DNA of 64,000 nt, from the NCBI RefSeq assembly GCF_050320075.1, contig NZ_CP190018.1; one strand, written 5' to 3'. This stretch comes from Escherichia coli (lineage in GTDB: Bacteria > Pseudomonadota > Gammaproteobacteria > Enterobacterales > Enterobacteriaceae). Position 1 is the stretch's first letter; each line of letters opens with the position of its first letter. The notes below the pieces were generated by a model that saw only the letters and a list, made by a program, of their open reading frames with translations, was not told where the DNA came from and made no database searches. This document shows, piece by piece, positions 7,026 to 39,841 of the stretch. The position numbers were made by a program, and so were the translations under genes.

Positions 7026-7169
7026 TTCTCCCGATTTCCTCAATTGCAATGAACCCGATGACCTGCGCATCGGGTTTTTTATTTCAGTTTCGCGGCGGGT
7101 GGCATCAGCAATAAAGTTTCCCCCTTCCTTGCCGATAACGAGATCAACTTGTTTTCAGGAAGGTGCCTT

Positions 7170-19853: not shown

Positions 19854-20609
<756 letters not shown>

Positions 20610-20655
20610 TTTTTACCGTTGCATCATGTCGCCCAATATGATGCTTGCTCGTACC

Positions 20656-20688
20656 AGGCCCCTGCAATTTCAACAGGGGCCTTTTTTT
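20656..20688 (+). terminator. Rho-independent terminator after cutC
   Basis: Stem AGGCCCCTG/CAGGGGCCT followed by T7. Confidence 0.8.
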
Positions 20689-26783: not shown

Positions 26784-27130
26784 TCAGAAAAGAGAAGATT
26801 GCTGTGGAATAGCCGGAACTGCTCCGATCTCTGGAAGCGTTTTACGTAAGTCTTCCCACAGGGTATGTACCAGTTCCGGGGCCTGGGCAATATCTGGCGT
26901 ATGTAAAAAAAGATAAGGCGTAGTGGTCTGATGCCACTGCGCTAATTTTTGTAACCAGACCTGAAATAATTCCCGGTTTTGCGTCATATCATCACTACCG
27001 ATAAAACGGATCAGCGGATTTGTCGCCGTCAGTACAGCATGTACCGGAACTTTAGGTTTTTTTCGTTGAGCGTCGCGAATAGCTTCACTGTGTGGACGTG
27101 CTGCATGAACCGGGCGGCTGTCTAAAATCA
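26784..27130 (-). pseudogene. yecE: yecE 3' fragment (C-terminal ~114 codons), separated from its 5' half by a 12.2 kb insertion
   Basis: Translation ...ILDSRPVHAARPHSEAIRDAQRKK...QQSSLF continues in frame from the 5' fragment at 39369 once the insert is removed; the ORF-track start at 27134 is a TTG artefact. Confidence 0.85.
27124..27130. repeat. attL core (AAAATCA) of the yecE insertion
   Basis: Identical 7-mer at 39363-39369; left flank joined to right flank restores yecE codons ...NRVILDSR... Confidence 0.65.
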
Positions 27131-27189
27131 TCAAGGTCTAAATGCACTACATGGGCACCTAAACATATACATGTGATGTTGAGGTGTTA

Positions 27190-27210
27190 GAAAGGGGGCT
27201 GTTCAGCCCC
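27190..27210 (-). terminator. Rho-independent terminator for the 306-aa leftward gene
   Basis: On minus strand GGGGCTGAACAGCCCC hairpin followed by CTTTCT, immediately after the stop at 27219. Confidence 0.7.
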
Positions 27211-27218
27211 TGATAGAC

Positions 27219-28139
27219 TTAGTAATTATCCCTGACAACTTCATCATATCTTTCAATGAAGGTTAGTTGTTTATTACTTCCATTATAACTATCAACCCAT
27301 TTGTCTACAGCTTCATCGAATAGAAATAAAAAATCCGTATAATTTATATACACTACATTATCATAATATTGGGTTGGGTGACCTCTTTTACATACAGCAA
27401 TACTAAGACGTCTTTCTTTACCCTGAGTAACTTTGTGTGAATTAAGATTAGTCATGTGAAGCAATGAGTTCCTTAATTCATATAATTCGTCGGAAGTTAC
27501 TCCAAGTTTTTGTATATCTGAGTATGTATCTAACCAATTTTGAAAGACTCTTCTTTTGTTTCCAAACTCAATATAAGCTATAGTATCAATAAATGACATT
27601 AATAGCTTGAAGCTTGACAAGTAATGTTTTTTGTTAAACAGAAGCTTTATTGGTTCCATATGGTCATCATTAAGAAGTTCCTTAATGTGAAAACCATCAT
27701 CTTTCATATACTTATCAAGATAGTCTGGCAAGTCTTTTACACCTTCAATGTGATAGTTAGGTGTGTGCTTATTCCTTAATTGCTCTGACATTGATAACTG
27801 AATATCATATTGTAATTTGCCTTTAACAACGGGGGTGACTATAGCTAAAGGGTTTTCAGGTGCATTTTGAGCTTCTAATGCTAATTCAAACGGAGCAAAA
27901 GGATTACCAATCCGCAAATTTGCATTATATCTTTCAAGTGTCAATTTGTCATTTTCTAAAACAGAAGGGTGTATCCCATAAAATAAACGACAAGAAGCTA
28001 AGTCAATCTCCAAATTCCGCTTTAAAAAATCTAATTTTTGCGCATCATCGCCATCATGTTCGTGAGGTACTATTCCGGCATGTGTGATATGAACTCCATC
28101 AGGACTAAAGCAAAATATGTTGTAGATAATCTCTTTCAT
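27219..28139 (-). CDS. Hypothetical 306-aa protein, AT-rich, counter-oriented accessory gene in the element; has one R-x4-H (RNSLLH) motif
   Basis: Uninterrupted ORF with ATG start, own terminator, transcribed opposite to the rest of the element; no family recognised by eye. Confidence 0.6.
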   Translation of the reverse strand: MKEIIYNIFCFSPDGVHITHAGIVPHEHDGDDAQKLDFLKRNLEIDLASCRLFYGIHPSVLENDKLTLERYNANLRIGNPFAPFELALEAQNAPENPLAIVTPVVKGKLQYDIQLSMSEQLRNKHTPNYHIEGVKDLPDYLDKYMKDDGFHIKELLNDDHMEPIKLLFNKKHYLSSFKLLMSFIDTIAYIEFGNKRRVFQNWLDTYSDIQKLGVTSDELYELRNSLLHMTNLNSHKVTQGKERRLSIAVCKRGHPTQYYDNVVYINYTDFLFLFDEAVDKWVDSYNGSNKQLTFIERYDEVVRDNY

Positions 28140-28400
28140 ACCATTCTAACCTTCAGTGAAAATAAAGTTTTAACTATCATTAGATTATGAACAATCACAA
28201 TTGGCCTGTAAATAACAGGGCATAAACAGGTTCGTTTAGCTTGATTTTATCACTATAACTGTCTGATTTAACGGTAACTCACCAAGTATACACACAGTAA
28301 TTACACAATCCTGTTATTATGTAACTTATTGAAATATATAAATAATTTTTACATTCTTTGTTTGGGGTAAGCTGTGTAATGTTAGTCGTCCCTCTCCAGA

Positions 28401-28414
28401 CACTATATATAGTG
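28401..28414. promoter_or_regulatory. Perfect 14-bp palindrome CACTATATATAGTG in the 1.1 kb ORF-free spacer
   Basis: Read directly; embedded in a run of TATATA-containing repeats. Confidence 0.4.
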
Positions 28415-29102
28415 CTATATACAGGACTATATAACGATATATAGATGTTTGGTCACATGGTATAACTATCAAACCACTTAACGATTTCCTACGTGAAAGT
28501 TAGAAAGTGATAGTTATAGTTACCTTGTCAAATCTTCGTAGTCCCTTCTTAAAAAATCGTGAAAGGTAATCTTGTTATCTATACAGAATCTACGTAGATG
28601 CTTCTTAGTGCGCAAAACAGCTATTATGTTAAAAACGCACTGTATACGTATCAGTACTGATTTATAAGGGTTTTGTGTATTGGCTGATAAGAGGCTATAC
28701 AGCACCTTGAGAGCATGTCTTCTAAGTCATTGACATATAAGGTCACAGAAGTTTGTAGCTGTTACAGAGAAAACTGGATAGGACTTCACAGAACTATAAA
28801 ATGTTACAGCTATTGATAGGTGAAATCTTCTTGATAGATGCTTTGAAGTGTGGTGAAGGCTTTTTGAGGTGGGGCTAAACAGATATCATGAAGAAAGTCA
28901 ATAGTTGATTCGGTTTATCGAATAAACCTCATAGATATTTTAAAATTCTGCAAAGGGGGTCACATAGCTGGTGTGACGGGTACTTAGCAGCTACAGACAT
29001 CTATCAGATATTTTTGAAGATTTTTAGAAGGGGAATTTGAAGAGGGGCTACTACGATTTTATAAAAATTTTCAGATTCTGAAAAGTTACTGTACAGAATA
29101 TG

Positions 29103-29127
29103 TACAGATATCTTTAAAGTATCTGTA
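29103..29127. promoter_or_regulatory. Inverted repeat TACAGATA-N9-TATCTGTA (candidate operator) upstream of the MTase gene
   Basis: Read directly; adjacent direct repeats GTACAGA(A/T)AT and GATATCC x2. Confidence 0.4.
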
Positions 29128-29249
29128 AAAACTTTTAAGATAAAAGATAGATATCCCAGAAAGGATATCCGTTTAGAAAACCTATTAAGTATCTCTTAAA
29201 AGAGAGTAAACCTTGTCAAGAGTGATTGCAATAAAAATTTTTATTTCTT

Positions 29250-29912
29250 ATGTCAATTGAGTGTATTTTAATCGGGAAACATCATGGGGGTTCTGATTAC
29301 TGGAGAACTCCATTTTTGTTATTTAAGAACTTACACCGTGAATTTATTTTCAGTCTGGATGGTGCTGCAACTAAGCACGATACGTTATTACCCCGCTTTA
29401 CGGATGATATTCACAATCAGTCATGGGATGGTGAACGGGTATTCTGTAACCCACCATACAGCGACACTAAAACATTCCTCGTAAAAGCGTCTGAGGCAGA
29501 TTTATCGGTATTCCTGATACCGTACCGACCCCAAACCATATACTGGCTTAAGCACATCTTCACAAACCCGCTTTGCCATGAAATCCGTATTCTTCATCGT
29601 GCAGTTAAATACCTTCCACCAGCAGGGCATAACAGGCTTACTATTAGGTCGCCGTTTCCAAGTGCAGTCGTTGTTTTTAAAAAAGAACCACGCAGGCATG
29701 AAATTACGCAGATGGTTTGCTGTGCTGATACATTGCTACCGTTAACCATCATTAACAGAGGAGGCTTGAGAGGAAGGCCCACCATTTACCCACCTGAGAC
29801 GCTCGACAGCTTCATAAAACTATACAGGCAAGGCAAACCCATTAAGTGCATTGCAGATGCTCTCAGAATGCCTCTGAGCACGTCATACAGGATTGCTCAA
29901 AGGTTGAGCTAG
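29250..29912 (+). CDS. Phage-type DNA N6-adenine methyltransferase (Dam family) with C-terminal HTH-like tail
   Basis: SDYWRTPF...FSLDGAA...FCNPPY motifs typical of phage Dam MTases; C-terminal GRP...IADALRMPLSTSYRIAQRL resembles an HTH. Confidence 0.75.
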   Translation: MSIECILIGKHHGGSDYWRTPFLLFKNLHREFIFSLDGAATKHDTLLPRFTDDIHNQSWDGERVFCNPPYSDTKTFLVKASEADLSVFLIPYRPQTIYWLKHIFTNPLCHEIRILHRAVKYLPPAGHNRLTIRSPFPSAVVVFKKEPRRHEITQMVCCADTLLPLTIINRGGLRGRPTIYPPETLDSFIKLYRQGKPIKCIADALRMPLSTSYRIAQRLS

Positions 29913-30052
29913 AATTCTCATAAATATGGTCATTTACAAGACAGGTGATTTAGATATTAAGAGGTATCCCTGTGAACAATAAATGACCAATCAGTAATTA
30001 TCCTGTGAAATAATTGTTGCAATTTATAATCACACATGGTATAGTTTCATAG

Positions 30053-30197
30053 TGGACTGATAAAAAAGTTCATGTCTTGAAGTGGTAACACTTGGGGAGG
30101 TGTCAGATGATTGACGTATATTAACCTCTCATTCATGGTAATACCTCAGCGTTTTAATCATCGTACTGTTTCAGGCATGGACTTCTTTATCAGTCCA
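30053..30197. promoter_or_regulatory. 145-bp segment bracketed by a perfect 12-bp inverted repeat (TGGACTGATAAA / TTTATCAGTCCA) upstream of the initiator gene
   Basis: Read directly at 30053-30064 and 30186-30197. Confidence 0.4.
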
Positions 30198-30276
30198 TCA
30201 ATCCCCCAGATATTTTAATCACACAGGCTAATCGGTTTTATCCGGTTGGCCTTTTCACGTATGAGGTAATTTATGA

Positions 30277-31245
30277 ATGAAAAAAGAAACTAATGCTTTT
30301 ATTATGGTAGATAAACGAGTTGCACAATTCCCTAAAACATTAAAGCCAATTGACCGCTTGGTATATTTCACTATGCTGGATGGTGCTGATTATTACGAAT
30401 CTAAGTTCGGGAGATACGCACCAAGTATTGACTATTTGATGGTTATGTCTGGTGCTACACGTAATACAGTTATTGATTCACTTAAGAGACTTGAGTCACA
30501 CAGACTTATCGAAAAGACCAATGTAAAGGGTCAGCAAAGTATTTTTAAAGTATTCACGTTGGATGAGCGTCCAGAGGTCTTATCAGAACCTACCCTTGAT
30601 GAGCGTCGTAGAGCTAAATTATCAGGTCAACCAGAATCTGACAGTAACCCAACCAAAAATTGGTTACCTACCCAACCAGAATTTGGTTACCTACCTAACC
30701 AGAATTTGGTTACATGTAATACTGAATATAAAGACAAAAATATAAATACTGAAGAAGAAAGACTAAAAGGGAACTTTGAAGAAGAATCTCTTAAGAAGGG
30801 AGCTTCGCTCTGTGATTCACATGAATGTGATATTAAAGAAGATGACTTTCTTTCTTTGGATGAATTAAATGATTTTCTCTCTATGAATGAATCTGGCCTT
30901 GATAGTGAAGCTACTAAAGAGGCTGTTAAAAAGGAAGATAAAATCTCTGATGTGAATATCGATAGTGACCATAAAAACACACAGTGCCCCGCCACTGATG
31001 ATGAGATGGACCCCTTCGATGATTACCTTGATGAAGAGTCAGAGCGTGAAAAAGCCATTAAGAGGGTAGAGAAGAAAAAGAGATTCGAGCTTGCAAGACA
31101 AAAGAACAAAGTATCGGGTTTAGACCCATTCGATGACAGTGACGATGATGACTTTTCTTTCACACCAAGAAAGAAACAAACTCAGGATGACAAGAAGCAA
31201 AAAATTAAACCGAAGATGTATTTTGCTGGTGGAGGTATGCGCTAA
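30277..31245 (+). CDS. Putative replication initiator / replisome organiser (N-terminal winged-helix-like domain, acidic C-terminal tail)
   Basis: N-terminus resembles phage initiator DNA-binding domains; tandem iterons inside the ORF; highly acidic low-complexity C-terminal half. Confidence 0.55.
   Translation: MKKETNAFIMVDKRVAQFPKTLKPIDRLVYFTMLDGADYYESKFGRYAPSIDYLMVMSGATRNTVIDSLKRLESHRLIEKTNVKGQQSIFKVFTLDERPEVLSEPTLDERRRAKLSGQPESDSNPTKNWLPTQPEFGYLPNQNLVTCNTEYKDKNINTEEERLKGNFEEESLKKGASLCDSHECDIKEDDFLSLDELNDFLSMNESGLDSEATKEAVKKEDKISDVNIDSDHKNTQCPATDDEMDPFDDYLDEESEREKAIKRVEKKKRFELARQKNKVSGLDPFDDSDDDDFSFTPRKKQTQDDKKQKIKPKMYFAGGGMR
30641..30714. repeat. Tandem 23-bp direct repeats (iterons) inside the initiator ORF: TTGGTTACCTACC(C/T)AACCAGAAT
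   Basis: Two full units at 30660-30682 and 30683-30705 (1 mismatch) plus flanking partial units. Confidence 0.8.
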
Positions 31246-31541
31246 TGAAAGAATATCACGGTGAAAAGAGATACAAAGATTACCTGTTAAAGCGTTATAG
31301 CATTTCTCGTGAAGGCCACTTAATGAAGGATACTCACGGGGAAGTTTACCGGATTAGACCGAAGAAAGAAGGGAGGGATTATTTCTTTTACGATGGTGTG
31401 ACAGATTTAAAGATTGATGCTTTGAAGTTTGCGGCGCTGTATCATTATGATATCTGGGACTCAGTCCACCAGCTACGATTAAAAGACGGTGACCCCGGTA
31501 ATCTGAGGGCCACCAATATTATCAAGGGAAAGTGCCGGTAA
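31245..31541 (+). CDS. Small HNH_3/NUMOD4-like protein (98 aa), catalytic His not evident
   Basis: YSISREGHLMKDTHGEVYRIRPKKEGRDYFFYDG...LKDGDPGNLRATN resembles NUMOD4/HNH_3 layout; overlaps initiator stop. Confidence 0.45.
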   Translation: MKEYHGEKRYKDYLLKRYSISREGHLMKDTHGEVYRIRPKKEGRDYFFYDGVTDLKIDALKFAALYHYDIWDSVHQLRLKDGDPGNLRATNIIKGKCR

Positions 31542-31864
31542 GTCCACCAGCTATTTATTTATTGAAATCTCTATCTCAACACGAAGAAGTTTAAGTCGAA
31601 TTGTAAGCTTTGTCTTTTTTGTAATGACTCGATTCATAACGCAAAACACCAATAGCACAATAAATACCGCAAAGCCCAACGAGCTAAAACGATGAGATTC
31701 AATAATTGCTGTGAAAAAATCATGCATTAATTTTCCTTTTGCGAAAGGAAACAGCACCTGTATCAGCCCCTATAACCATAATATCATGTAAATGAGATGT
31801 TGACAATATGTTAAATAAATGTTATGATTGTAGTATGAGTAAGAGATTTAAGGAGATTTTTACA

Positions 31865-32155
31865 ATGACTCACACAGTTACGCGCCTTTTGCCAGAGGCA
31901 TTTGAACGACTGGCAGCAATCAAAGCCAAATATCCCGATATGAAGCACACAGCGCTTGTTGGAGAGCTTTTAAAAGAGTCGGTAACCCTGACCCCTTTCG
32001 ATAACGTTAAGGGCGTTGCAGAGGGTTCTAAGGCCATCAGAATCACAACGGACCAACTGGAACTACTCAAAGCACAGTCCGCAGTAGCAGGTTGCTCAAT
32101 GATTCAGGTGTTAAGCGCAAAGGTCCATCAATTAGCGGATAGGCTGGGGGTTTAA
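31865..32155 (+). CDS. Hypothetical small protein (96 aa)
   Basis: AAGGAG RBS 8 nt upstream of ATG at 31865; ORF-track start at 31808 is probably an extension; stop overlaps next gene (TAATG). Confidence 0.5.
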   Translation: MTHTVTRLLPEAFERLAAIKAKYPDMKHTALVGELLKESVTLTPFDNVKGVAEGSKAIRITTDQLELLKAQSAVAGCSMIQVLSAKVHQLADRLGV

Positions 32156-32580
32156 TGCTATGCACATTTGATTATCATGCGTTTTATCGCCATAGAGGCC
32201 ACCTTGTCCGTGAGAATAGCGGAACATGGAAAGATTTAACTCGTAATGCTGAACCCTTCACACACCAGCAATTAAAATCCCGCTTCTCCAGATGGAAGAA
32301 TGCACCAGCAGATACTGGTGATTTTGAGATTATCCATACCTTCGATTATGCCTCAGAAGATGACCTTCACGATGCAATTAAGCTGATTGAAGACTTCAAT
32401 ACCTCAGAAGATGTGGATGGTGACAAATATAAATCCCGTGGTAACCGCTATAACCGTGATGATATCACTCAGGCCATAAATGCTGGTCAATCTCAGCGAT
32501 ACATTACAGAAAAATATGGTATTTCACGGAGACAGTATTTCTACGTTAAATCATTGATTAATAAAGACAATTCAAAATAA
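32155..32580 (+). CDS. Hypothetical protein (141 aa) with C-terminal HTH-like segment
   Basis: Translationally coupled to upstream gene; C-terminus ...QSQRYITEKYGISRRQYFYVK resembles a Hin/resolvase-type HTH. Confidence 0.5.
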   Translation: MLCTFDYHAFYRHRGHLVRENSGTWKDLTRNAEPFTHQQLKSRFSRWKNAPADTGDFEIIHTFDYASEDDLHDAIKLIEDFNTSEDVDGDKYKSRGNRYNRDDITQAINAGQSQRYITEKYGISRRQYFYVKSLINKDNSK

Positions 32581-32741
32581 CCATCTCAGTAACGGTAGAA
32601 TGCACTTTACAGGCAGAGTTGCACCTTAATTTGATAAATTACCTTACCAGCCAGTGCAACTCCCTCTGTAACCCGCATGATTACTGGTCTCAGAATGGCT
32701 ATTTTAAGAGGTCTGAGATGTGTTTTGTAGGAGATTTAAAA

Positions 32742-33065
32742 ATGAACAACTTCCCATTACAGATTTTCGTTGATAACGACACCGCTATGATGGTGCAAAG
32801 CTTCAGTGATGCAGGTATTAGCATTGATTTTGACAGGCTGTTAAAGCTAATGGCTGATAATGAAGAAAACGTCTCTGACTTTATTCACTCGGTGGAGTTT
32901 AACGAGCCTCGAATGATGTTACCAATTACAGACAGTAATATGAAAAGATTGGTTATTGAGCAAACGAACAAATACAGTATTTCCCCAGAGCAATTTTTGA
33001 AAGGTGCTGTGACAATCCTGTACAGCGATAATATTTTGGTTACGGATTCCGTGAGGGTTCACTAA
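32742..33065 (+). CDS. Hypothetical small protein (107 aa)
   Basis: GGAG-type RBS before ATG at 32742; ORF-track start at 32619 is probably an extension. Confidence 0.45.
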   Translation: MNNFPLQIFVDNDTAMMVQSFSDAGISIDFDRLLKLMADNEENVSDFIHSVEFNEPRMMLPITDSNMKRLVIEQTNKYSISPEQFLKGAVTILYSDNILVTDSVRVH

Positions 33066-33359
33066 TGGGCTTAATAATTGCTTGGACGTTGCTTGGCTTA
33101 TTTGTTGGTTGCTGGGTAGGCAGCACAGTAAATAGAAATTGATGTTACCAATCTGTTAAAAAGCTGTTGACAAATAACCTTAAGCATGAGATGATGGTAA
33201 TAGGGGAGAGCAACTCTCTCTTATTTTTCTTTCAAAATAATCCGATGGATGGATATTCTGAATTGGAAAGGTGCAATGCTTTTCGTCATGGCCTTTCAGT
33301 TTAGTCTGAGAGGCTATCTCAAAAAGTGCTTAATCATTCATTGAACCCTTTACAGCTTT

Positions 33360-33387
33360 GCCCTAACTCATGATTAGGGCTTTCTTT
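33360..33387 (+). terminator. Rho-independent terminator-like hairpin
   Basis: Stem GCCCTAA/TTAGGGC with 7-nt loop followed by TTTCTTT. Confidence 0.55.
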
Positions 33388-33456
33388 AAGAGTTTTTAAA
33401 CAGAGCTTTTAAAGAAAGTTTTTCCTGAAACTTCGTTAACGTTAAAGCAAACCTTC

Positions 33457-33520
33457 AAAGCCCTTCACAGATGAGGATGATTCCATGAATATCCGAATCA
33501 CCTATGTTTAGGGCTTTTTT
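33457..33520 (+). ncRNA. Long-loop hairpin with U-tract (candidate small RNA 3' end or attenuator)
   Basis: Outer stem AAAGCCCT/AGGGCTTT enclosing inner GGAT/ATCC stem, followed by T6. Confidence 0.3.
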
Positions 33521-33636
33521 CAGCTTTTAAAAAGCATACTTGGCAAACGCCTTTTAAGCCTCTTCTAAGTTCGAGGATGTCAGGTGTGCTTTTTAAAAAC
33601 TGAAACATAAATTATCTTAGAAGAGGAAAGGTATTA

Positions 33637-34341
33637 ATGGCTATCCGTGATGAAAATGAAATGATTATTGAAAACAAACCAAGTGCACTTGATATTCACG
33701 AATTAAGTTTGCGTGAATCTTTTGATAGAGCTTGGCGGGAATCACACGAAGTAAATAAAGGTCCATATATTCCACCAGAACCACTCGAGATTCCAAGAGT
33801 TGAAATTGATTTTTCTATGAACGAACGGTGTGAACTTGATTTGAAGTTGAAGCTACAACGCCGATATTTCCAAGCTATTAAAGACTCTCAAGAAGCAATG
33901 AGAAGTGTTTATGAGAAAATTCAGTCCAAGCTTGAAGACGAAATTGACGAAATGGCTATTTTGATGGAGCTTCAAACCAATCCTTATGCTTATTTCTCTC
34001 GACTAGACCGTGACGGTTGGGGGTATGACCCTGTAGAGATTGGTAAAGTGATTGCAGATTTACCAGAAGGTCAAAGGGTTATTCGTACGGAAAGGGCCAT
34101 CAGAGCGCCACATCAACTGTCTCTAATTGTTGCTGATAAATCACAAGCTGAGCTTGAAGAAATTGCCAAAGAGAAACTGATGAAAGCAAGAGAAAATGAG
34201 ATTAATTTGCTGAAATCAAGACTGGCTAAGCTGATTAGTGACCATCAAGCGCTGGCTAAGGAGTACCGTCAAGAGTTGGCACAGATTATCAGCTTCAATG
34301 ATTTTCTGAGTGTTCCACGAGAATTTAGCAAGGCTGTTTGA
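33637..34341 (+). CDS. Hypothetical protein (234 aa), charged coiled-coil-rich
   Basis: ORF with ATG and GAGG-type RBS; no family recognised. Confidence 0.55.
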   Translation: MAIRDENEMIIENKPSALDIHELSLRESFDRAWRESHEVNKGPYIPPEPLEIPRVEIDFSMNERCELDLKLKLQRRYFQAIKDSQEAMRSVYEKIQSKLEDEIDEMAILMELQTNPYAYFSRLDRDGWGYDPVEIGKVIADLPEGQRVIRTERAIRAPHQLSLIVADKSQAELEEIAKEKLMKARENEINLLKSRLAKLISDHQALAKEYRQELAQIISFNDFLSVPREFSKAV

Positions 34342-34364
34342 TTATGAATTAAAAGAGGTGATTA

Positions 34365-34583
34365 ATGTATGAAGACCGTTTGGAAACTATCAAGGCAGTT
34401 TGTGAAAAACTTAAAAACCAACCACGTAAACCAAAAACGGTAAAGAGTAAGCATCAGCCTGTCACCTCAAACAGCAAAATAAAGATTCGCAAAATTCCTT
34501 CGTGGTGCATTGACCGTATTCCGGTTGGTTCAAGAATTATTCGTGAAGATGGTGATTATCATTGGGTATCAGTTGTTGGTTAG
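34365..34583 (+). CDS. Hypothetical small basic protein (72 aa)
   Basis: RBS GAGGTG before ATG; gene-dense context. Confidence 0.45.
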   Translation: MYEDRLETIKAVCEKLKNQPRKPKTVKSKHQPVTSNSKIKIRKIPSWCIDRIPVGSRIIREDGDYHWVSVVG

Positions 34584-34671
34584 TTAGTAAAAATCTACGG
34601 GAGAGATTATCGAGTGATATCGGTAGCTCTCCCTTTTTCGTATATGAACACTTAAGAGGTGAAAAATATGA

Positions 34672-36804
34672 ATGAGCAAATTCACAGTTGATAGTTTTAT
34701 CGTTGAATTAAGCTTCAATGAAAACATTATTAAGGGCTTGCAAAGAGTTGAAAAGGCAGCTTTGCAGTCAGCACAAAGAATTGAAAAGAACCTAAATAAA
34801 GGTTTCAGGATTAATACAAAGCAGCTTGATAGTAATTTAACGGCTTCTTTAGGGCAGCTTGAAAGGAAGTTTAATAAGGCCTTTGACAAGATTGAACAGA
34901 GAGCAAGAAATACTAAAGCTTTCCAGTTTACCACCAGATTTAATGACACTGTTAATCCTCCAAAACAACCGAGACAGCCACGAATTAGCGGCAACAGAGC
35001 AATCACAGCAGCTTACTCAGCGAATATGAGCAAGCTAAAAGGCTTTGACCCTATTTTGCAGAAATACATCAAATCTCAGTTTTACGGGCTATCTGCTAAA
35101 GCCGGTTCAATGGATTCTTCAAAATTCAATGAGAAGTTAGCTCAGTTAAACGCTTCAGTCAGAGAAGCAATTGCTAAAGCCAGAGGTCATACATCCACCA
35201 GCATTAATGGTGACAGAGCAGCTAATAGTCTTGATAACCTGTCTTCAGCAGCAGTTAAAACAGCAGGTGCATTTATCTCAATGCAGGCTGTATTAGCCAG
35301 TTATCAGAAGATTATGGAAATTGGTTTACAGCGTGCAAGTGCTGAACGTTCAATTGATTTCGTATTTGATAAAGATGCAGGTCAAGTAAAAGAGTTCACA
35401 AAGTCATTAGCTCAAACAACGGGTTTAGATATCGCTGAACTGCAATCACAGTTTGCTGGTTTTGGTGCTTCAGCTAAAGAGTCTATGGGCATTCAAGGTT
35501 CTGAAGAACTTTTTAAAAATATGATTGGCTATGCTCGTCTGATGGGGAGAAGTGAAGAAGAGATTAAGCGAGCACTGACAGCATTATCACAGATGGCTGG
35601 TAAGGGTCAGGTTATGGCTGAAGAGCTTAAGGGGCAATTAGCTGAAGCTGTTCCTGGTATGGTTCAGGTATTCGCTAAAGCAACCGGAAGGAATGAACAA
35701 GAGCTATTTGATGCCATGAAGAAGGGGGCTTTAAAATCTGCCGATACTCTTCAGAAGGTCACTCAGGAACTGAATAAACAAATCACCGCTAAAGGTGGCT
35801 GGAAAGCTATTTCAGAAAGTACACAGGCACAACTAGGGAACCTGAAAAACTCTTGGAATACCACGCTTGATAGTATCTTCAGAGGTTCTGAAGATGGTCT
35901 GCAAGATTTTACAAGAAGCTTAACAACGCTTTTAAACGCTCTTGGTGGAAGTGGTAAAAGTCTTGGTGAATCTCTTGGTAGTCTCATGACTTCTATGTCA
36001 CATGGTGTCGATTCATTGACTGATATCAGCTACAGGGTAAGAGCATTCTTCGATGAGGTGACATTAGCTTACCGTTCACTAAATGACACTCAGAAAAAAA
36101 TTGTTGATGGTTTATCTGATGGGTTAATTGATGGTTTGAAGATGCTTGCCGTAGCTGTTACTGCTCAAAAGGCTGCAAATGTAGCTGGAGGCTTGTTAAA
36201 CCTTGCAAATGCTGTTACTTCATTCGGTGATGCTGTTAATAAAGCTAAAGCTGGCAAGGCTGGTTCTTCAGGTGGTGCGCTAAATAAAGTTGGTAGAGTT
36301 GTTCTTTATGCTGAGTTGGTGAACTTTGCTCTTGATAATTTAAACCCTGAAGCGGCTAAGAATCCGAACTTACACCAATCAGGTATTGGAACAGAGACAA
36401 ACTTCAACCCTGAATACAAAGGCGATTCATCTAAACCAAACCAAATTAATGATGGATGGGCTAAGATTGGTAGTTCTATCGCTGACTGGTTTAATGGTGC
36501 GGCTAATAAAATTGCTAACTTCCAAGACCCGATGAATAACTTTGTTAATAACACACAATCAACTCCACCAGCTATCACAGGTGACATGGTTAATAGCAAT
36601 GCTCAACTTGCTATGGCTGTATCAGAGTTAGGAAGAAAGGTAGACGCTTTAACAGTAGAAGCTAAGAAGCCTTTATCAGTTAATATCAAAGGTGAAGCAA
36701 TTGTTAGACCGGATGAACCAGCTTTCTTTACTTTCAATCAATCAGCTAATGACCAGTTCACGCAGGATATGCTCTTAAGTTCAAGCTATCCAGAGGAAGA
36801 ATGA
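34672..36804 (+). CDS. Tape-measure-domain-like protein (710 aa)
   Basis: Central segment ...MAEELKGQLAEAVPGMVQVFAKATGRNEQELFDAMKKGALKSADTLQKV... resembles the conserved phage tape-measure domain; Ala/Gly/Ser-rich low-complexity C-terminal part. Confidence 0.55.
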   Translation: MSKFTVDSFIVELSFNENIIKGLQRVEKAALQSAQRIEKNLNKGFRINTKQLDSNLTASLGQLERKFNKAFDKIEQRARNTKAFQFTTRFNDTVNPPKQPRQPRISGNRAITAAYSANMSKLKGFDPILQKYIKSQFYGLSAKAGSMDSSKFNEKLAQLNASVREAIAKARGHTSTSINGDRAANSLDNLSSAAVKTAGAFISMQAVLASYQKIMEIGLQRASAERSIDFVFDKDAGQVKEFTKSLAQTTGLDIAELQSQFAGFGASAKESMGIQGSEELFKNMIGYARLMGRSEEEIKRALTALSQMAGKGQVMAEELKGQLAEAVPGMVQVFAKATGRNEQELFDAMKKGALKSADTLQKVTQELNKQITAKGGWKAISESTQAQLGNLKNSWNTTLDSIFRGSEDGLQDFTRSLTTLLNALGGSGKSLGESLGSLMTSMSHGVDSLTDISYRVRAFFDEVTLAYRSLNDTQKKIVDGLSDGLIDGLKMLAVAVTAQKAANVAGGLLNLANAVTSFGDAVNKAKAGKAGSSGGALNKVGRVVLYAELVNFALDNLNPEAAKNPNLHQSGIGTETNFNPEYKGDSSKPNQINDGWAKIGSSIADWFNGAANKIANFQDPMNNFVNNTQSTPPAITGDMVNSNAQLAMAVSELGRKVDALTVEAKKPLSVNIKGEAIVRPDEPAFFTFNQSANDQFTQDMLLSSSYPEEE

Positions 36805-36967
36805 TTTCTTATATATCCGTGTGCTACGTGATTTCTTCTGAACAGATATACCCACTAAAAATTATTTTTTACGTAGCTCACGCTTAACAGAGAAAATACT
36901 TATATATCAAAGGCTTGGTTAAAAATGATTAAAATACACTAAGCCTTTGAAATCAAAGGAGAATTTA

Positions 36968-37741
36968 ATGATTTACTCTAATCAGATTCGTTACAGTGGT
37001 AAAGATGGCGTTTACTTTCATCTACAAGGCCAGCCAGATAATTTCTTGTCACTATCAGCTACTGAGAACATGGAATTTGACAGCCCTATGATGGTTACCA
37101 CTCAAAATATGCAATCAGGGCAGACTGTCACAGATAATGTAATGCGTTCACCCAGAACTATTTCAATCAGTGGTGTGGTTGTAGTTGGTGAATCCGGTAG
37201 TATCCTTATCTCAAGAGATAATAAGCTGGTGGAAAACTTCATAGACACTCTTGAAAACTGGCGTGACCAGAAGCAAATTATCTCAGTTGTCTGTAAAGAT
37301 GGTATTAAGATTGACGACTCAATTATTACAAACTTTAAAGCCTCTAAAGATGTTGGTATTGCCAATGGTCTTAGAATCCAATTAACTTTTCAGGAAATTA
37401 ACTTTAAAGCTATTGTGGGTCAGACTGATATCTCGGCTGCGACCGGAAGGACTTCTACCACAAGTGATGGTGGTGCTACCAGTAAAAAGAATACAGGGAA
37501 CACTACGACAAGCTTAGGTAACGGTATGTTGATGTGTCAGGAGCTATATAATCGCTCTACGAGTGAACTTACTAATGAGCAACTTCAAGCCCGTATCAAT
37601 TGTGGTAAAAATGTCAGAGTTAAGAACGGAAAAAGCACCTTCTCAGATGCCGCTAATGAGCAAGCTTCAAAGGTGCTTAATAATGCTGGTACAGGTAGTA
37701 CTTTGAAGAAGTATTCTGTTAATCCTAACAAGCGATACTGA
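36968..37741 (+). CDS. Hypothetical protein (257 aa), possible virion/tail-associated
   Basis: AAGGAG RBS before ATG at 36968 (ORF-track start 36947 is TTG); directly follows the tape-measure-like gene. Confidence 0.45.
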
Positions 37742-37755
37742 CGATAGAATCTCAA

Positions 37756-39279
37756 CTATATGATAACCTCATCAACATCTATTAAACCCCTCTCAGTGAC
37801 TTCAGAAAGCGACTGTATAGCCTCTGTAACGTTGTCTGAGGGGTTTTCTGTTATTGGTAAGGTGATTGCTTTACCGTTGTGAAAAGTTACTTTACAGCGA
37901 CGTTTAGCAGTATTTAAAACGACCTCTTTAACAGCACTTTTGATTATCAGTTGTGCTTCAATCCTTCCCGCCTTTGTAGTCAAGTCACAATCAGACAAAC
38001 AACCCACATCAATAGATTTAAGGCGTTGTGTCTCCTTCTCGATATCCGCATCAACTTGTGATAGCTCATTCTTTAGTTGTCTTAGTTTGCTGGTAATAGC
38101 GGACAAGTCTTCAATTTCAAGTGATAGCTGTACCAGCTTTTCAATATTGCTTGAGATGTGTTCACGGTGTAGCTTCAGTGTGTCTATGGTATTCGTCATA
38201 TCGCTATCAAATCGGTCAAGACGAGATAGCAGGGCAAGCAATGTACCATCGGTTTGCTTACGTGAAAGTCCTTTAGCACTACAACGGTTTTCATTACGAA
38301 GAGGACAACGATAAATCCCGTTTCTTGTATCGCTAAAGCCTGTGATAATCAAAGCATGACCACATTCAGAACAACGGATAACACCTTTGAAAAGATTCAC
38401 AGCCATTGGCTTATCTGAAGCAGGTTTTCTACCGTAACGAGCATATGATAGTTGTTGAACTTTGTAGAATGTTGTTTCATCTATAATTGCAGGATAATAA
38501 CCAGATATCTCCTCACAGCCTTTAGGTGTGAAGTAACCAATTACAGAGCGATTCTTCAAAAGGTCTTGCACTGAGGTTTGACCAAACTTACCTGCTTTGT
38601 ACTGGTTAAGCGTCTGGTGACCTTCAGCATTAAGAGTTCTGACAATCTCCCAGATAGACTTACCCTCTAACCGTAGCTGAAAGCACCTCTTCACAGTCTC
38701 CACTTTCTCAGGTATCACAGAGAAGCTTTTACGGTCATCATTAAGCTTAAGCCATGCAGGACAACGCCTAGAAATCTTGATACCAGCTTTAGCAGCTTCT
38801 TTCTTTGCATCCCATGCAGCTTGTATACGCTCAGCCTTACGTAATGATTCCTCATGCGCCCTTTGCATTATCAAAATGCTTTTAATCAGAGCTAACGGGT
38901 CTTTAAGAGATTCCCTTGTGTAATGTTCACCATCGGACAGGGTGACTACATCTACACCAGAGCGAAGAATGTTTCTGAGTAGCTCACTTGCTTGGTCTAC
39001 GTCCTGACGTGAGAGACGGTCTAAACTCTCGATTAGTAGTGTATCACCAGCTTTAACAAGCCCTTTCTCGATAGCGGTTAAAAAGTCACCTAAGCCACCT
39101 TTCAAGTGCTTACCAGTGAACCCGCTAACGCCTAAATCACGAAAAGTAAGGGATTCATCCAGATAGTACTCAGGATGAGCCTTAAGCCAATCAGTGACCA
39201 TCTTAGCCTGTCGTCTTAATGAGTCGCCTCTGGATTGCTTCTCAGATGAAAACCGGATGTAACTGATTGCACGTTTCAT
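37756..39279 (-). CDS. Large serine recombinase (integrase)
   Basis: 507 aa; N-terminal resolvase-type catalytic domain (YIRFSSEKQ with catalytic Ser), recombinase domain, Cys-rich zinc ribbon (CSECGH...YRCPLRNENRC), C-terminal coiled coil; adjacent to attR. Confidence 0.9.
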   Translation of the reverse strand: MKRAISYIRFSSEKQSRGDSLRRQAKMVTDWLKAHPEYYLDESLTFRDLGVSGFTGKHLKGGLGDFLTAIEKGLVKAGDTLLIESLDRLSRQDVDQASELLRNILRSGVDVVTLSDGEHYTRESLKDPLALIKSILIMQRAHEESLRKAERIQAAWDAKKEAAKAGIKISRRCPAWLKLNDDRKSFSVIPEKVETVKRCFQLRLEGKSIWEIVRTLNAEGHQTLNQYKAGKFGQTSVQDLLKNRSVIGYFTPKGCEEISGYYPAIIDETTFYKVQQLSYARYGRKPASDKPMAVNLFKGVIRCSECGHALIITGFSDTRNGIYRCPLRNENRCSAKGLSRKQTDGTLLALLSRLDRFDSDMTNTIDTLKLHREHISSNIEKLVQLSLEIEDLSAITSKLRQLKNELSQVDADIEKETQRLKSIDVGCLSDCDLTTKAGRIEAQLIIKSAVKEVVLNTAKRRCKVTFHNGKAITLPITENPSDNVTEAIQSLSEVTERGLIDVDEVII

Positions 39280-39346
39280 TGTTCACCTCACCAATAGCAG
39301 TTGGGCTTGTACCAACCCCTAGATTGTATCGCTTTAGATGGTGTAT

Positions 39347-39841
39347 TTAAACGTGTCTAATAAAAATCACCCGATTAACGCCGCGCTGATGTAAACCGCG
39401 ATTAAGCGTTTGTTCCTCTTCCCCTTTGGCGAAAAACTGTGGATGGCGGACTTCCACACCATAATTAAATTCGCCGGGAAGGGAATCGAGAAAATGCCAA
39501 AGCGCAGGCAGATCCCGTGGGCCAAATGTGGCAGGCAGTTGCAGCCAGTATTGCCCAATGCGCGGCGCTAACGGTGACATGCGGGTCAAAAATTCAGTCA
39601 CTAAATCATCGCAATGCCGTAATGCTGCCTGATGCGAAATGGTCGCCGGAAACTTAAAACAGAAGCGAAAATTATCTGTGGTCTGCTCACGCCAGCGCAG
39701 GACAACCTCGGATTTCGGCAGGGCGTAAAGCGTGGTGTTGCCCTCCACACAGTTAAAGTGGCGGGCATACTCTTCAAGGCTGGTGATCCCCAACCGCACC
39801 CATTTAGGATGCGACCATTGCGGCAGACCGATGTAAATCAT
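39347..39841 (-). pseudogene. yecE: yecE 5' fragment (N-terminal ~158 native codons, reads 6 codons into the insert before a stop)
   Basis: Translation [29 protein letters not shown]... (DUF72); 158 + 114 codons reconstitute a 272-aa protein. Confidence 0.85.
39363..39369. repeat. attR core (AAAATCA) of the yecE insertion
   Basis: Identical 7-mer to 27124-27130. Confidence 0.65.

What the first reader, a model, noticed from the sequence alone, without database searches (positions are those of the whole stretch)
30641..30714. Iteron-like 23-bp tandem repeats embedded in the initiator ORF (origin inside the rep gene, lambda-O style)
Two near-identical 23-bp units TTGGTTACCTACC(C/T)AACCAGAAT with partial flanking copies lie inside the coding sequence, encoding a PTQPEFGYLPNQNL linker. 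Downstream the protein becomes extremely acidic and low-complexity. An origin embedded in the initiator gene is a classic lambdoid arrangement and would mean the element replicates autonomously after excision.
Basis: partly seen in the sequence, partly recalled or inferred. Interest (0 to 1): 0.5.

Follow-up and report, generated by a model that had tools for sequence, protein, structure and literature searches.

The report
Replication origin inside a satellite-like island's initiator gene
A short DNA repeat inside a gene of a 12-kb mobile island in E. coli is very probably the island's replication origin, bound by the protein that the same gene encodes; the arrangement is known from plasmids and phage lambda, but the island looks like an undescribed relative of the cholera-phage satellite PLE.

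Summary
The repeat is real. There are three 23-bp copies (30647-30715) and one degenerate copy (30628-30640). It is the only strong tandem array in the 64-kb window. Each copy holds the palindrome AACCA-N5-TGGTT, and the three copies are read in three different reading frames.

The repeat lies in a 322-aa gene (30277-31245), directly after a confident winged-helix N-domain and directly before the most AT-rich 50 nt of the gene.

All seven diverged homologue types examined (20-47% N-domain identity) carry their own, unrelated repeats. Six have 22-24-bp arrays of 2.4-3.9 copies; the seventh has three copies of a motif spaced 32 and 23 bp apart. All sit at the equivalent position and are followed by the gene's AT minimum. 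In E. coli, "N-domain + repeats + AT stretch" is exchanged as one cassette while the flanks and the C-terminal half stay conserved.

The N-domain's best solved relative is the RepA N-terminal domain of the Vibrio cholerae satellite PLE. The layout matches RepA_N plasmids such as pSK41 and, by analogy only, lambda O/ori.

So the iteron and origin-in-gene reading is well supported but not proven. The lambdoid ancestry and "autonomous replication" are not supported.

The host element is a 12,232-bp serine-recombinase island in yecE. It carries tail genes and non-coding patches resembling Felix O1-like phages.

The parts
27131..39362 (.). 12,232-bp integrative island inserted in yecE. The 7-bp AAAATCA is present at both junctions (27124-27130 and 39363-39369).
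   Evidence: Alignment of both flanks to an intact yecE; PGAP annotation of split DUF72 halves; island GC 0.387 against 0.511 in the flanks.
30277..31245 (+). rep gene, 322 aa: basic winged-helix N-domain, disordered linker, acidic C-terminal half.
   Evidence: ORF; PHROG 'replication initiation protein' families at E 1.7e-7 to 2.9e-6; AlphaFold model; PDB and fold matches to PLE RepA N-domain and RepA_N initiators.
30277..30627 (+). Coding part of the N-terminal winged-helix DNA-binding domain (aa 1-117; pI 9.5).
   Evidence: pLDDT 82-95 for residues 10-110, last helix 107-116; 4RO3 profile match at E 1.2e-6; Foldseek 4ro3 TM 0.65, rmsd 3.4 over 107 columns.
30628..30640 (+). Degenerate iteron 0: left arm AACCA kept, right arm decayed; 22 bp upstream of iteron 1 in phase.
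   Evidence: Family D4.
30647..30669 (+). Iteron 1, ACCCAACCAAAAATTGGTTACCT (core AACCAAAAATTGGTT).
30670..30692 (+). Iteron 2, ACCCAACCAGAATTTGGTTACCT.
30693..30715 (+). Iteron 3, ACCTAACCAGAATTTGGTTACAT.
30714..30772 (+). AT-rich stretch directly 3' of the iterons; candidate DNA-unwinding element.
   Evidence: GC 0.217 at 30710-30769; lowest 50-nt GC is 0.20, the 0.24th percentile of coding windows in the island; the same feature follows the array in all seven types.
30280..30823 (+). Specificity cassette (N-domain + iterons + AT stretch) replaced as a unit in type-C islands. In type-B islands the replaced stretch is 30123-30772.
   Evidence: blastn of the window against L003-L005, L024 and L025: 89-96% identity upstream of the cassette, 80-90% downstream, and none inside it.
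30773..31245 (+). C-terminal half of rep (acidic, mostly disordered, two helices). It is shared between specificity types. Its inferred role is replisome recruitment.
   Evidence: no homologue in PHROGs or PDB.
29250..29912 (+). Dam-like N6-adenine methyltransferase gene immediately upstream of rep on the same strand.
   Evidence: PHROG 111 at E 2.4e-25; TIGR01712 partial match; PADLOC orphan MTase.
28934..29189 (.). Two non-coding patches similar to non-coding DNA of Felix O1-like (Ounavirinae) phages, upstream of the methyltransferase-rep genes. Candidate helper-responsive control region.
34672..36804 (+). Tape measure protein gene, distantly related over its full length to the Ounavirinae tape measure protein.
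   Evidence: PHROG 4036 at E 1e-79; tblastn 26-32% identity, E 2.6e-67 against phage 3HA14.
36947..37741 (+). Dit-like (distal tail/baseplate) gene, 65-70% identical to the Felix O1-like gene that directly follows the tape measure gene.
   Evidence: Pfam Dit_like on the identical product.
37756..39279 (-). Large serine recombinase at the island's right end.
   Evidence: NCBIfam XisF/CcrA-type partial matches; Pfam Resolvase + Recombinase; annotation.

Best explanation
The 23-bp repeats are iterons ('Rep boxes') of a theta-type origin that lies inside the initiator gene of a 12.2-kb integrative island.

Shown by sequence and comparison:
- The gene encodes a basic winged-helix N-domain, a disordered linker and an acidic C-terminal half.
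- The linker's DNA carries 3-4 phased semi-palindromic sites, followed by the most AT-rich stretch of the gene.
- Every homologue type has its own version of these sites.
- The N-domain, the sites and the AT stretch are exchanged together.

Inferred from the characterised relatives (pSK41-type RepA_N initiators, PLE RepA, lambda O):
- Dimers of the N-domain bind the AACCA-N5-TGGTT cores about two helical turns apart.
- They bend the DNA and open the adjacent AT-rich stretch.
- The C-terminal half recruits a replisome, either the host's or that of a helper phage.

Inferred from the island's content: firing is probably conditional on infection by a Felix O1-like phage rather than constitutive. 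The methyltransferase and rep genes lie in tandem behind phage-like control DNA, so infection would both supply Rep and drive transcription through the origin.
For: Repeat anatomy and significance.

The copies are read in three frames, so a repeated peptide cannot be the cause.

Position: the array starts at aa 118, just after the last N-domain helix (107-116), inside the segment with pLDDT <50.

The AT minimum of the gene lies immediately 3' of the array in 7 of 7 types. It is at or below the 1st percentile of the gene in 6 of them.

Independent arrays exist in all types:
- type B, ACCCACTGAGTCAAAATTCTTT x3-4
- type C, GACAAAATGACACCACTACCAGT x2.4-3.5
- L008, CTACACCTCTSARAGCAC x4
- L010, period 23-24, x3.4
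- L012, TCAAAATTTGAAGGGGGGTACT x3.5
- L013, ATACGGAAACCG x3
. N-domains are only 20-47% identical between types.

The type-specific motif occurs only inside the rep gene in 9-19 kb of context in all five loci tested, and in the window.

Cassette exchange has sharp boundaries, at 30280/30823 and at 30123/30772.

The central tract changed in concert in three copies between type B and its 80%-identical variant.

Relatives: the N-domain profile hits 4RO3, the PLE RepA N-domain, at E 1.2e-6, then DnaD-N. Foldseek ranks 4ro3 first and also finds the RepA_N structures 5kbj, 4pql and 4pt7.

Literature:
- pSK41 Rep (319 aa) binds four Rep boxes in the centre of its own gene, and the linker they encode is dispensable (PMC5703833).
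- The PLE RepA_N domain and the PLE ori covary and are swapped (PMC8263062).
Against: There is no experimental evidence of binding or of replication.

Pfam RepA_N and Phage_rep_O do not match. The only Pfam signals are generic winged-helix families: HTH_36, DnaD_N, DUF6945. A DNA-binding regulator with intragenic operators is therefore not excluded.

In PLE, the closest relative, the origin is intergenic and not intragenic.

The island has a 1.1-kb non-coding region with 10-12-bp periodic repeats and patches similar to phage non-coding DNA. This region could be an alternative or additional origin.

No plasmid or phage in the collections uses this initiator, so there is no independent sign of autonomous replication.

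No DnaA boxes lie near the array.
Confidence: 0.72

Rival explanations
1. The repeats are genuine Rep-binding sites but are not the origin. They would serve autoregulation, copy control (handcuffing) or a roadblock on rep transcription. Replication would start in the 1.1-kb non-coding region (28140-29250), as in PLE, where the origin is intergenic.
For: The PLE origin is in a non-coding region. The island's non-coding region has 10-12-bp periodic repeats. Two of its patches resemble non-coding DNA of Felix O1-like phages, one of them inside a 1.6-kb repeat-rich phage region of unknown role.
Against: That non-coding region holds no copy of the type-specific motif. It stays 83% identical in an island with a different Rep specificity, so it does not covary with the DNA-binding domain. 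The array is followed in all seven types by the gene's AT minimum, which an operator would not need. In the architecturally closest systems (pSK41, lambda) the intragenic array is the proven origin.
Confidence: 0.13
2. The protein is a winged-helix transcription factor or repressor, not an initiator. The array would be its operator, for example controlling the downstream genes of the island.
For: The only Pfam matches are generic HTH families, and NCBI names the protein 'helix-turn-helix domain-containing protein'. Many Foldseek hits are MarR-type regulators.
Against: The best sequence and fold matches are replication initiators: PLE RepA, RepA_N structures and DnaD-N. All five annotated PHROG hits, including the best, are replication-initiation families; the sixth, weakest hit has no annotated function. 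The three-part layout, the array position and the adjacent AT-rich block reproduce pSK41 Rep and lambda O almost residue for residue. No other candidate initiator is encoded in the island.
Confidence: 0.08
3. The repeat is a neutral duplication (replication slippage) tolerated in a disordered linker, or a packaging or recombination signal unrelated to the gene's product.
For: The array lies in a predicted disordered segment where protein constraint is weak. 3 x 23 = 69 bp keeps the reading frame.
Against: Seven lineages with unrelated repeat sequences all keep 3-4 copies at the same position. Six are 22-24-bp arrays; L013 has spacings of 32 and 23 bp. Most have internal dyad symmetry around an A/T tract. 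The array is nearly invariant within type A, with only single-base differences, while the C-terminal half diverges to 82-96% overall identity. It covaries with the DNA-binding domain, and its copies changed in concert between related variants.
Confidence: 0.04

Closest known systems
RepA_N theta replicons of Gram-positive plasmids (pSK41, pTZ2162, pAD1 type)
   Same: The size and three-part layout are almost identical. pSK41 Rep is 319 aa: N-domain 1-120 binds four Rep boxes in the centre of its own gene, a dispensable linker (121-199) is encoded by the origin DNA, and the C-terminal domain recruits replication proteins (PMC5703833). Here the protein is 322 aa, with the N-domain to about residue 117, the array at aa 118-147 and disorder from 121 to 186. 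[quoted passage not shown] The fold is similar to 5kbj, 4pql and 4pt7. N-domain + origin cassettes are exchanged, as in pPR9 versus pSK41.
   Different: There is no Pfam RepA_N match. The host is E. coli, not a Firmicute. The replicon sits in an integrated chromosomal island, not a plasmid, and no plasmid in PLSDB carries it. The C-terminal half is unrelated to anything known.
RepA and ori of the Vibrio cholerae phage satellite PLE
   Same: The PLE RepA N-domain is the closest solved relative of the N-domain, by sequence profile (4RO3, E 1.2e-6) and by fold (rank 1). The element type is similar: a 12-18 kb island with a large serine recombinase and no helicase or primase. The DNA-binding domain and its sites covary while the C-terminal domain is shared, with repeated module swapping (PMC8263062). 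There are hints of dependence on a virulent myovirus.
   Different: The PLE iterons are about 30 bp long and lie in a non-coding region, not inside repA. No other PLE marker gene was tested. This island carries tape measure and Dit genes. PLEs have been reported as specific to V. cholerae (PMC10085698).
Phage lambda O protein and ori-lambda
   Same: Lambda has four dyad-symmetric iterons around an A-tract at gene nt 349-433 (aa 117-145), spaced 20-24 bp apart and read in different frames, followed by an AT-rich block (GC 0.31). Here the array is at nt 352-439 (aa 118-147), spaced 22-23 bp, with GC 0.20 after it. The N-terminal half binds the iterons, and N-terminal halves and iterons covary among relatives (established knowledge of lambdoid phages).
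   Different: No detectable homology: hhalign probability 0.07%, and no Phage_rep_O match. Only a weak hit to a PHROG labelled 'O-like' (E 2.9e-6). No P-like or DnaC-like loader gene follows: the 98-aa product of 31245-31541 has no family match. The element is not a lambdoid prophage.

Membership tests
Lambdoid O-type initiator / ori-lambda | Sequence homology of the initiator to lambda O (Pfam Phage_rep_O) | tested here: not met
   No Phage_rep_O match for the protein or for any of 9 family members. hhalign of the N-domain profile against lambda O gives probability 0.07%. Only a weak PHROG 678 'O-like' hit at E 2.9e-6.
Lambdoid O-type initiator / ori-lambda | About four dyad-symmetric iterons in the middle of the initiator gene, followed by an AT-rich block | tested here: met
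   Three full copies plus one degenerate copy at nt 352-439, AT minimum directly after. Lambda values were read from NC_001416.
Lambdoid O-type initiator / ori-lambda | A helicase-loader gene (P or DnaC-like) immediately downstream | tested here: not met
   The downstream 98-aa product (31245-31541) and the other small island proteins have no PHROG, NCBIfam or PADLOC match.
RepA_N replicons (pSK41 type) | Match to the Pfam RepA_N domain model (PF06970) | tested here: not met
   Not among the Pfam hits of the protein or of the 9 members. Hits are HTH_36, DnaD_N and DUF6945. PLE RepA was itself assigned to this family by structure, not sequence.
RepA_N replicons (pSK41 type) | N-terminal winged-helix domain with the RepA_N / DnaD-N fold | tested here: met
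   Foldseek: 4ro3 rank 1 (E 3.7e-4, TM 0.65 on target), 5kbj at 2.0e-3, 4pql and 4pt7 at 3-5e-3. Profile hits: 4RO3 at 1.2e-6 and DnaD-N 2vn2 at 6e-3. Margins over generic MarR-type folds are small.
RepA_N replicons (pSK41 type) | Origin iterons located centrally within the rep coding sequence, encoding a linker between the N- and C-terminal domains | tested here: met
   The position of the array is shown. That the array is the origin is inferred, not shown.
RepA_N replicons (pSK41 type) | Semi-palindromic direct repeats converging on an A/T tract | tested here: met
   AACCA(A/G)AA(A/T)TTGGTT; type C TGACAAAATGTCA; L012 CTTCAAAATTTGAAG; L013 ATACGGAAACCGTAT. L008 has no obvious dyad.
RepA_N replicons (pSK41 type) | N-domain binds the iterons and the segment supports replication | not testable with these tools
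   Needs EMSA and replication assays.
PLE-type phage satellites | RepA-type initiator related to PLE RepA | tested here: met
   the identity of 4RO3 as PLE RepA is from PMC7145576.
PLE-type phage satellites | Integration and excision by a large serine recombinase | tested here: met
   The gene is present at the island end. The insertion in yecE is precise, with a 7-bp shared core. Activity itself was not tested.
PLE-type phage satellites | Origin iterons in a non-coding region | tested here: not met
   The cognate motif occurs only inside rep.
PLE-type phage satellites | Excision, replication and packaging triggered by a specific virulent helper phage | not testable with these tools
   Only indirect hints: tape measure and Dit homologues, and two non-coding patches shared with Ounavirinae.
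PLE-type phage satellites | Other PLE core genes (capR, nixI, lidI, tcaP and others) | not tested
   No PLE sequences were available in the collections used.

The most novel reading that the evidence does not exclude
The island is the founding member of an undescribed family of E. coli phage satellites. It would be the enterobacterial counterpart of the Vibrio cholerae PLE, parasitising virulent Felix O1-like (Ounavirinae) myoviruses.

On this reading it senses the helper through phage-like control DNA upstream of its methyltransferase and rep genes. It then fires the intragenic RepA_N-like origin, and uses its own tape measure and Dit proteins to build or redirect tails.

The three co-circulating 'N-domain + iteron' cassettes would record either incompatibility between islands or escape from origin-targeting helper nucleases, as in the PLE-ICP1 arms race.
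Probability: 0.4. Interest if true: 0.8.

Novelty: new member of a known kind. Interest (0 to 1): 0.55.

Why it matters
The replicon itself is a familiar design. An initiator whose binding sites and unwinding element sit inside its own gene is known from lambda and from RepA_N plasmids, so the iterons are not a new mechanism.

What matters is where the replicon sits. The initiator family is annotated only as 'helix-turn-helix' or 'hypothetical'. It is present in about 2.5% of complete E. coli genomes (130-149 of 5,426). Its nearest characterised relative is the RepA of PLE, a satellite family so far reported only in Vibrio cholerae.

Pinning down the origin and its three interchangeable specificity cassettes gives a concrete, cheap handle for several tests in the most tractable host:
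- whether E. coli carries PLE-like satellites of virulent Felix O1-type phages;
- what triggers their replication;
- why replicon modules are swapped.

It also gives a practical rule for annotating such origins: a 22-24-bp array whose period breaks the reading frame, followed by the gene's AT minimum.

Tried and rejected
- **Lambda O homology.** Tested directly with a profile-profile comparison against lambda O from NC_001416 and rejected.
- **Protein-level repeat.** Rejected, because the period of 23 bp puts the three copies in three different frames.
- **Extra Rep sites upstream of rep (autoregulatory operators).** None found in the window or in five related loci.
- **DnaA boxes near the array.** None; the window holds 4 matches against 6.5 expected, and none lies in the rep gene.
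- **Known RNA families in the island.** Only chance-level matches. No tRNA genes in the window.
- **Homologues of Rep in phage genomes, plasmids or IMG/VR.** None found. The alignment-based scan of viral contigs could not be run because no conserved stretch was available.
- **Function of the C-terminal half.** No PHROG or PDB relative.
- **Defence genes in the island.** Only the orphan methyltransferase matches PADLOC.
- **Synonymous-site analysis within type A.** Uninformative, because the whole N-terminal half is nearly invariant among the variants sampled.
- **Literature on this island.** Searches using yecE, satellite, Felix O1/Ounavirinae, PLE-like and tape measure found no description in the held library. 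yecE is known there only as an Stx-phage attachment site. Weaver et al. 2009 on RepA_N replicons is not held.
Full report
**1. The observation**

The stretch 30628-30715 holds a tandem array with a 23-bp period. Tandem Repeats Finder reports 30647-30713: 2.9 copies, 93% matches, score 113. In register the copies are 30647-30669, 30670-30692 and 30693-30715. A degenerate copy (CAACCAGAATCTG, 30628-30640) lies 22 bp upstream in phase. Each full copy contains the palindrome AACCA-N5-TGGTT around an A/T-rich centre (pair I14).

The array is the only one scoring 50 or more in the 64-kb window. None of 300 synonymous-codon shuffles of the gene reaches its score. The 17-nt core occurs three times here and nowhere else in the island.

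The copies start at codon positions 2, 1 and 3 of the ORF. They are therefore translated in three different frames (NPTKNWL / PTQPEFGYL / PNQNLVT). The repetition is a property of the DNA, not of the protein.

Directly 3' lies an AT-rich block. GC is 0.217 at 30710-30769. The lowest 50-nt window has GC 0.20, which is the 0.24th percentile of all coding windows in the island.

**2. The gene**

The array lies in a 322-aa ORF, 30277-31245. All five of its annotated PHROG matches, including the best, are replication-initiation families (E 1.7e-7, 2.6e-6, and 2.9e-6 for one labelled 'O-like'). Pfam gives only a weak HTH_36 match and NCBIfam gives nothing.

An AlphaFold model built on a 9-sequence alignment shows three parts:
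- a confident winged-helix N-domain (pLDDT 82-95 for residues 10-110, last helix 107-116);
- a disordered segment from 121 to 186;
- a mostly disordered C-terminal half with two helices.

The array starts at residue 118. The array and the AT block therefore encode exactly the disordered linker. The N-domain is basic (pI 9.5).

**3.

Within complete E. coli genomes the gene is found in 130-149 of 5,426. Many hits match only the 3' part of the gene, from nt 497 or 548 onward. Reading those loci showed three specificity types whose N-domains are 38-47% identical.

Each type has its own tandem array at the same position:

| Type | Repeat unit | Copies |
|---|---|---|
| A (the window) | ACCCAACCAGAATTTGGTTACCT | 3 + 1 degenerate |
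| B | ACCCACTGAGTCAAAATTCTTT | 3-4 |
| C | GACAAAATGACACCACTACCAGT | 2.4-3.5 |

A search of 1.84 billion cluster representatives found only 16 clusters, so the family is small. Three more distant members have their own 22-24-bp arrays of 3.3-3.9 copies at gene nt about 350-500 (L008, L010, L012). A fourth, on a phage-like contig, has three copies of ATACGGAAACCG(C/T)A at nt 336-406.

In all seven types the lowest-GC 50-nt window of the whole gene lies within 50 nt after the array. It falls at or below the 1st percentile of the gene in six of them. In every locus with context, the type-specific motif occurs only inside rep.

Between type B and an 80%-identical variant, the central tract of three copies changed in parallel (AAAATT to AAGAAA) while the outer arms stayed the same.

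**4. Cassette exchange**

Against type-C islands, DNA identity is 91-96% up to 30279 (the rep start codon is at 30277). It is absent from 30280 to 30823 and resumes at 30824. Against type-B islands the lost stretch is 30123-30772.

The exchanged unit is thus the N-domain, the iterons and the AT block, and nothing else.

Within type A the N-terminal half including the array is almost invariant, while the C-terminal half is mosaic.

**5. What it is related to**

A profile of nine N-domains finds as its best solved relative 4RO3 (E 1.2e-6), followed by generic winged-helix regulators and the DnaD N-domain 2vn2. 4RO3 is the N-terminal domain of RepA, the replication initiator of the Vibrio cholerae phage satellite PLE. 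Its authors assign RepA to the RepA_N family by structure (PMC7145576).

Foldseek with the model again ranks 4ro3 first (TM 0.65 on the target, rmsd 3.4 over 107 columns). It also lists the RepA_N initiator structures 5kbj, 4pql and 4pt7. Individual family members match Pfam HTH_36, DnaD_N and DUF6945, but not RepA_N or Phage_rep_O.

The published description of pSK41 Rep fits this gene closely. pSK41 Rep is 319 aa. Its N-domain (1-120) binds four Rep boxes in the centre of the rep gene, residues 121-199 are encoded by the origin and are dispensable, and the C-terminal domain binds DnaG (PMC5703833). RepA_N iterons are described as semi-palindromic direct repeats converging on a poly-A tract. 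This matches types A, C, L012 and L013, and partly type B. In PLE the RepA_N domain covaries with the origin, the C-terminal domain is shared, and modules have been swapped repeatedly (PMC8263062). That is the same pattern as seen here.

**6. Lambda**

I read lambda's O gene from NC_001416. Its four iterons lie at gene nt 349-433 (aa 117-145) and are spaced 20, 24 and 23 bp apart. They start at codon positions 1, 3, 3 and 2, and an AT-rich block follows. The resemblance in layout is striking.

The N-domain profile nevertheless does not align with lambda O (probability 0.07%), and no loader gene follows rep. 'Lambda-O style' is therefore a valid analogy of design, not a family assignment.

**7. 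The element**

The window is E. coli chromosome (MicL in cutC, C0465). The island occupies 27131-39362 (12,232 bp). It is inserted in yecE with AAAATCA at both junctions. The empty site is present in more than 5,100 genomes.

The island carries, in order:
- a 306-aa gene of unknown function;
- 1.1 kb of non-coding DNA;
- a Dam-like methyltransferase gene;
- rep;
- several small genes with no family match;
- a tape measure gene;
- a Dit-like gene;
- a large serine recombinase gene.

No helicase, primase, polymerase, capsid or terminase gene was recognised.

The tape measure protein aligns over its full length with that of Felix O1-like phages (26-32% identity, E 2.6e-67). The Dit-like protein is 65-70% identical to the phage gene that follows the tape measure gene. 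Two non-coding patches upstream of the methyltransferase and rep genes resemble non-coding DNA of these phages. 29111-29189 is 80% identical to a divergent intergenic region and contains a palindrome. 28934-29082 is 71% identical to part of a 1.6-kb repeat-rich non-coding region.

Distant rep homologues also sit in islands with serine recombinases and tape measure genes. Rep has no relative in the phage, plasmid or IMG/VR collections searched. Two public assemblies contain contigs that equal the island plus exactly 30 bp of flank on each side. This pattern is expected when occupied and empty sites coexist in a sample.

I found no paper describing this island. A 2023 survey reports PLEs only in V. 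cholerae (PMC10085698).

**8. Mechanism**

*Shown:*
- a DNA-level, phased, dyad-symmetric array;
- its position between a winged-helix domain and an AT minimum;
- its presence in every homologue type;
- its covariation with the DNA-binding domain.

*Inferred from characterised relatives:*
- N-domain dimers bind the arms, which are one helical turn apart, on sites about two turns apart;
- binding distorts the DNA and opens the AT block;
- the acidic C-terminal half brings in replication proteins.

*Inferred from context:* replication is probably transient and conditional on a Felix O1-like helper rather than plasmid-like. The initiator is never found on plasmids, and PLE RepA needs its phage.

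I put 0.72 on the array being the origin. The main rival (0.13) is that the array binds Rep but replication starts in the non-coding region. That region does not covary with Rep type: it is 83% conserved in an island of another type. It also contains no cognate motif.

**9. Verdict**

The iteron and origin-in-gene reading is well supported by seven independent lineages and by homology to proven systems, but no experiment backs it yet. The lambdoid label and the inference of autonomy are not supported.

As a replicon it is a new member of a known kind. The unexpected part is its home, a probable PLE-like satellite family in E. coli.

Noticed in passing
window 27131-39362: A 12,232-bp island is inserted precisely in yecE, with a 7-bp AAAATCA at both junctions. 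It carries a large serine recombinase, a PLE-RepA-like initiator, a Dam-like methyltransferase, and tape measure + Dit genes related to Felix O1-like (Ounavirinae) phages. It has no capsid, terminase or replisome genes. It looks like an undescribed satellite family; no description was found in the held literature.
   Followed up: partly
window 28934-29082 and 29111-29189: Two non-coding patches upstream of the methyltransferase and rep genes resemble non-coding DNA of phage vB_EcoM_3HA14 and more than 200 other Ounavirinae. They are 71% identical to phage 74418-74566 and 80% identical to phage 65190-65267. The second patch holds the palindrome AGATATCC-N6-GGATATCC. They may be a helper-responsive promoter or operator, a packaging signal, or a mimic of the phage origin.
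   Followed up: partly
window 28140-29250: This 1.1-kb stretch has no convincing ORF and holds several 10-13-bp periodic repeats (28402-28433, 29006-29030, 29077-29129). Part of it (28305-28902) is 83% conserved in an island with a different Rep type (L026). The matching phage non-coding region is also packed with 10-12-bp repeats. Function unknown.
   Followed up: partly
L029 (SRR25011127) and L031 (ERR4157936), whole contigs: Two public assembly contigs of 12,292 and 12,293 bp equal the island plus exactly 30 bp of yecE flank on each side. This is the signature of an assembly-graph bubble, meaning occupied and empty sites coexist in those samples through excision or a strain mixture. No circular junction was seen.
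   Followed up: yes
L006 977-2020 (E. coli SCU-484 and five other genomes, hits H83-H88): A decayed copy of the island lies next to dinB/yafN: a frameshifted type-C rep still carrying its iteron array, followed by a truncated Dit-like gene. This is a second, older insertion site.
   Followed up: no
L010 8933-9184 and L011 1165-1416: In a distant relative of the island, an 83-aa gene with T5orf172/MUG113 nuclease-family matches lies immediately 3' of rep. The same island carries a T6SS Hcp gene as cargo. T5orf172 is the domain that ICP1 fused to a RepA_N domain to make its origin-directed nuclease (PMC8263062).
   Followed up: no
window 31120-31170 (Rep residues about 282-298): The conserved C-terminal motif LDPFDDSDDDDFSF resembles, from memory, the acidic C-terminal tip of bacterial SSB (DFDDDIPF). 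It could be a replisome-recruiting mimic. The C-terminal half has no detectable homologue.
   Followed up: no
window 30053-30077 and 30173-30197: A 25-nt inverted repeat (88% complementary, 95 nt between the arms) lies in the intergenic region upstream of rep. The left boundary of the type-B cassette (30122) falls between its arms.
   Followed up: no
proteins P0133 and P0135: These are homologues of 122-127 aa consisting of the N-domain only. They may be truncated gene calls, or stand-alone DNA-binding proteins that could compete for iterons.
   Followed up: no
window 20381-20688 (+) and 7045-7122 (-): The MicL sRNA (inside cutC) and the C0465 sRNA are ordinary E. coli chromosomal features. 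They identify the window's host.
   Followed up: yes
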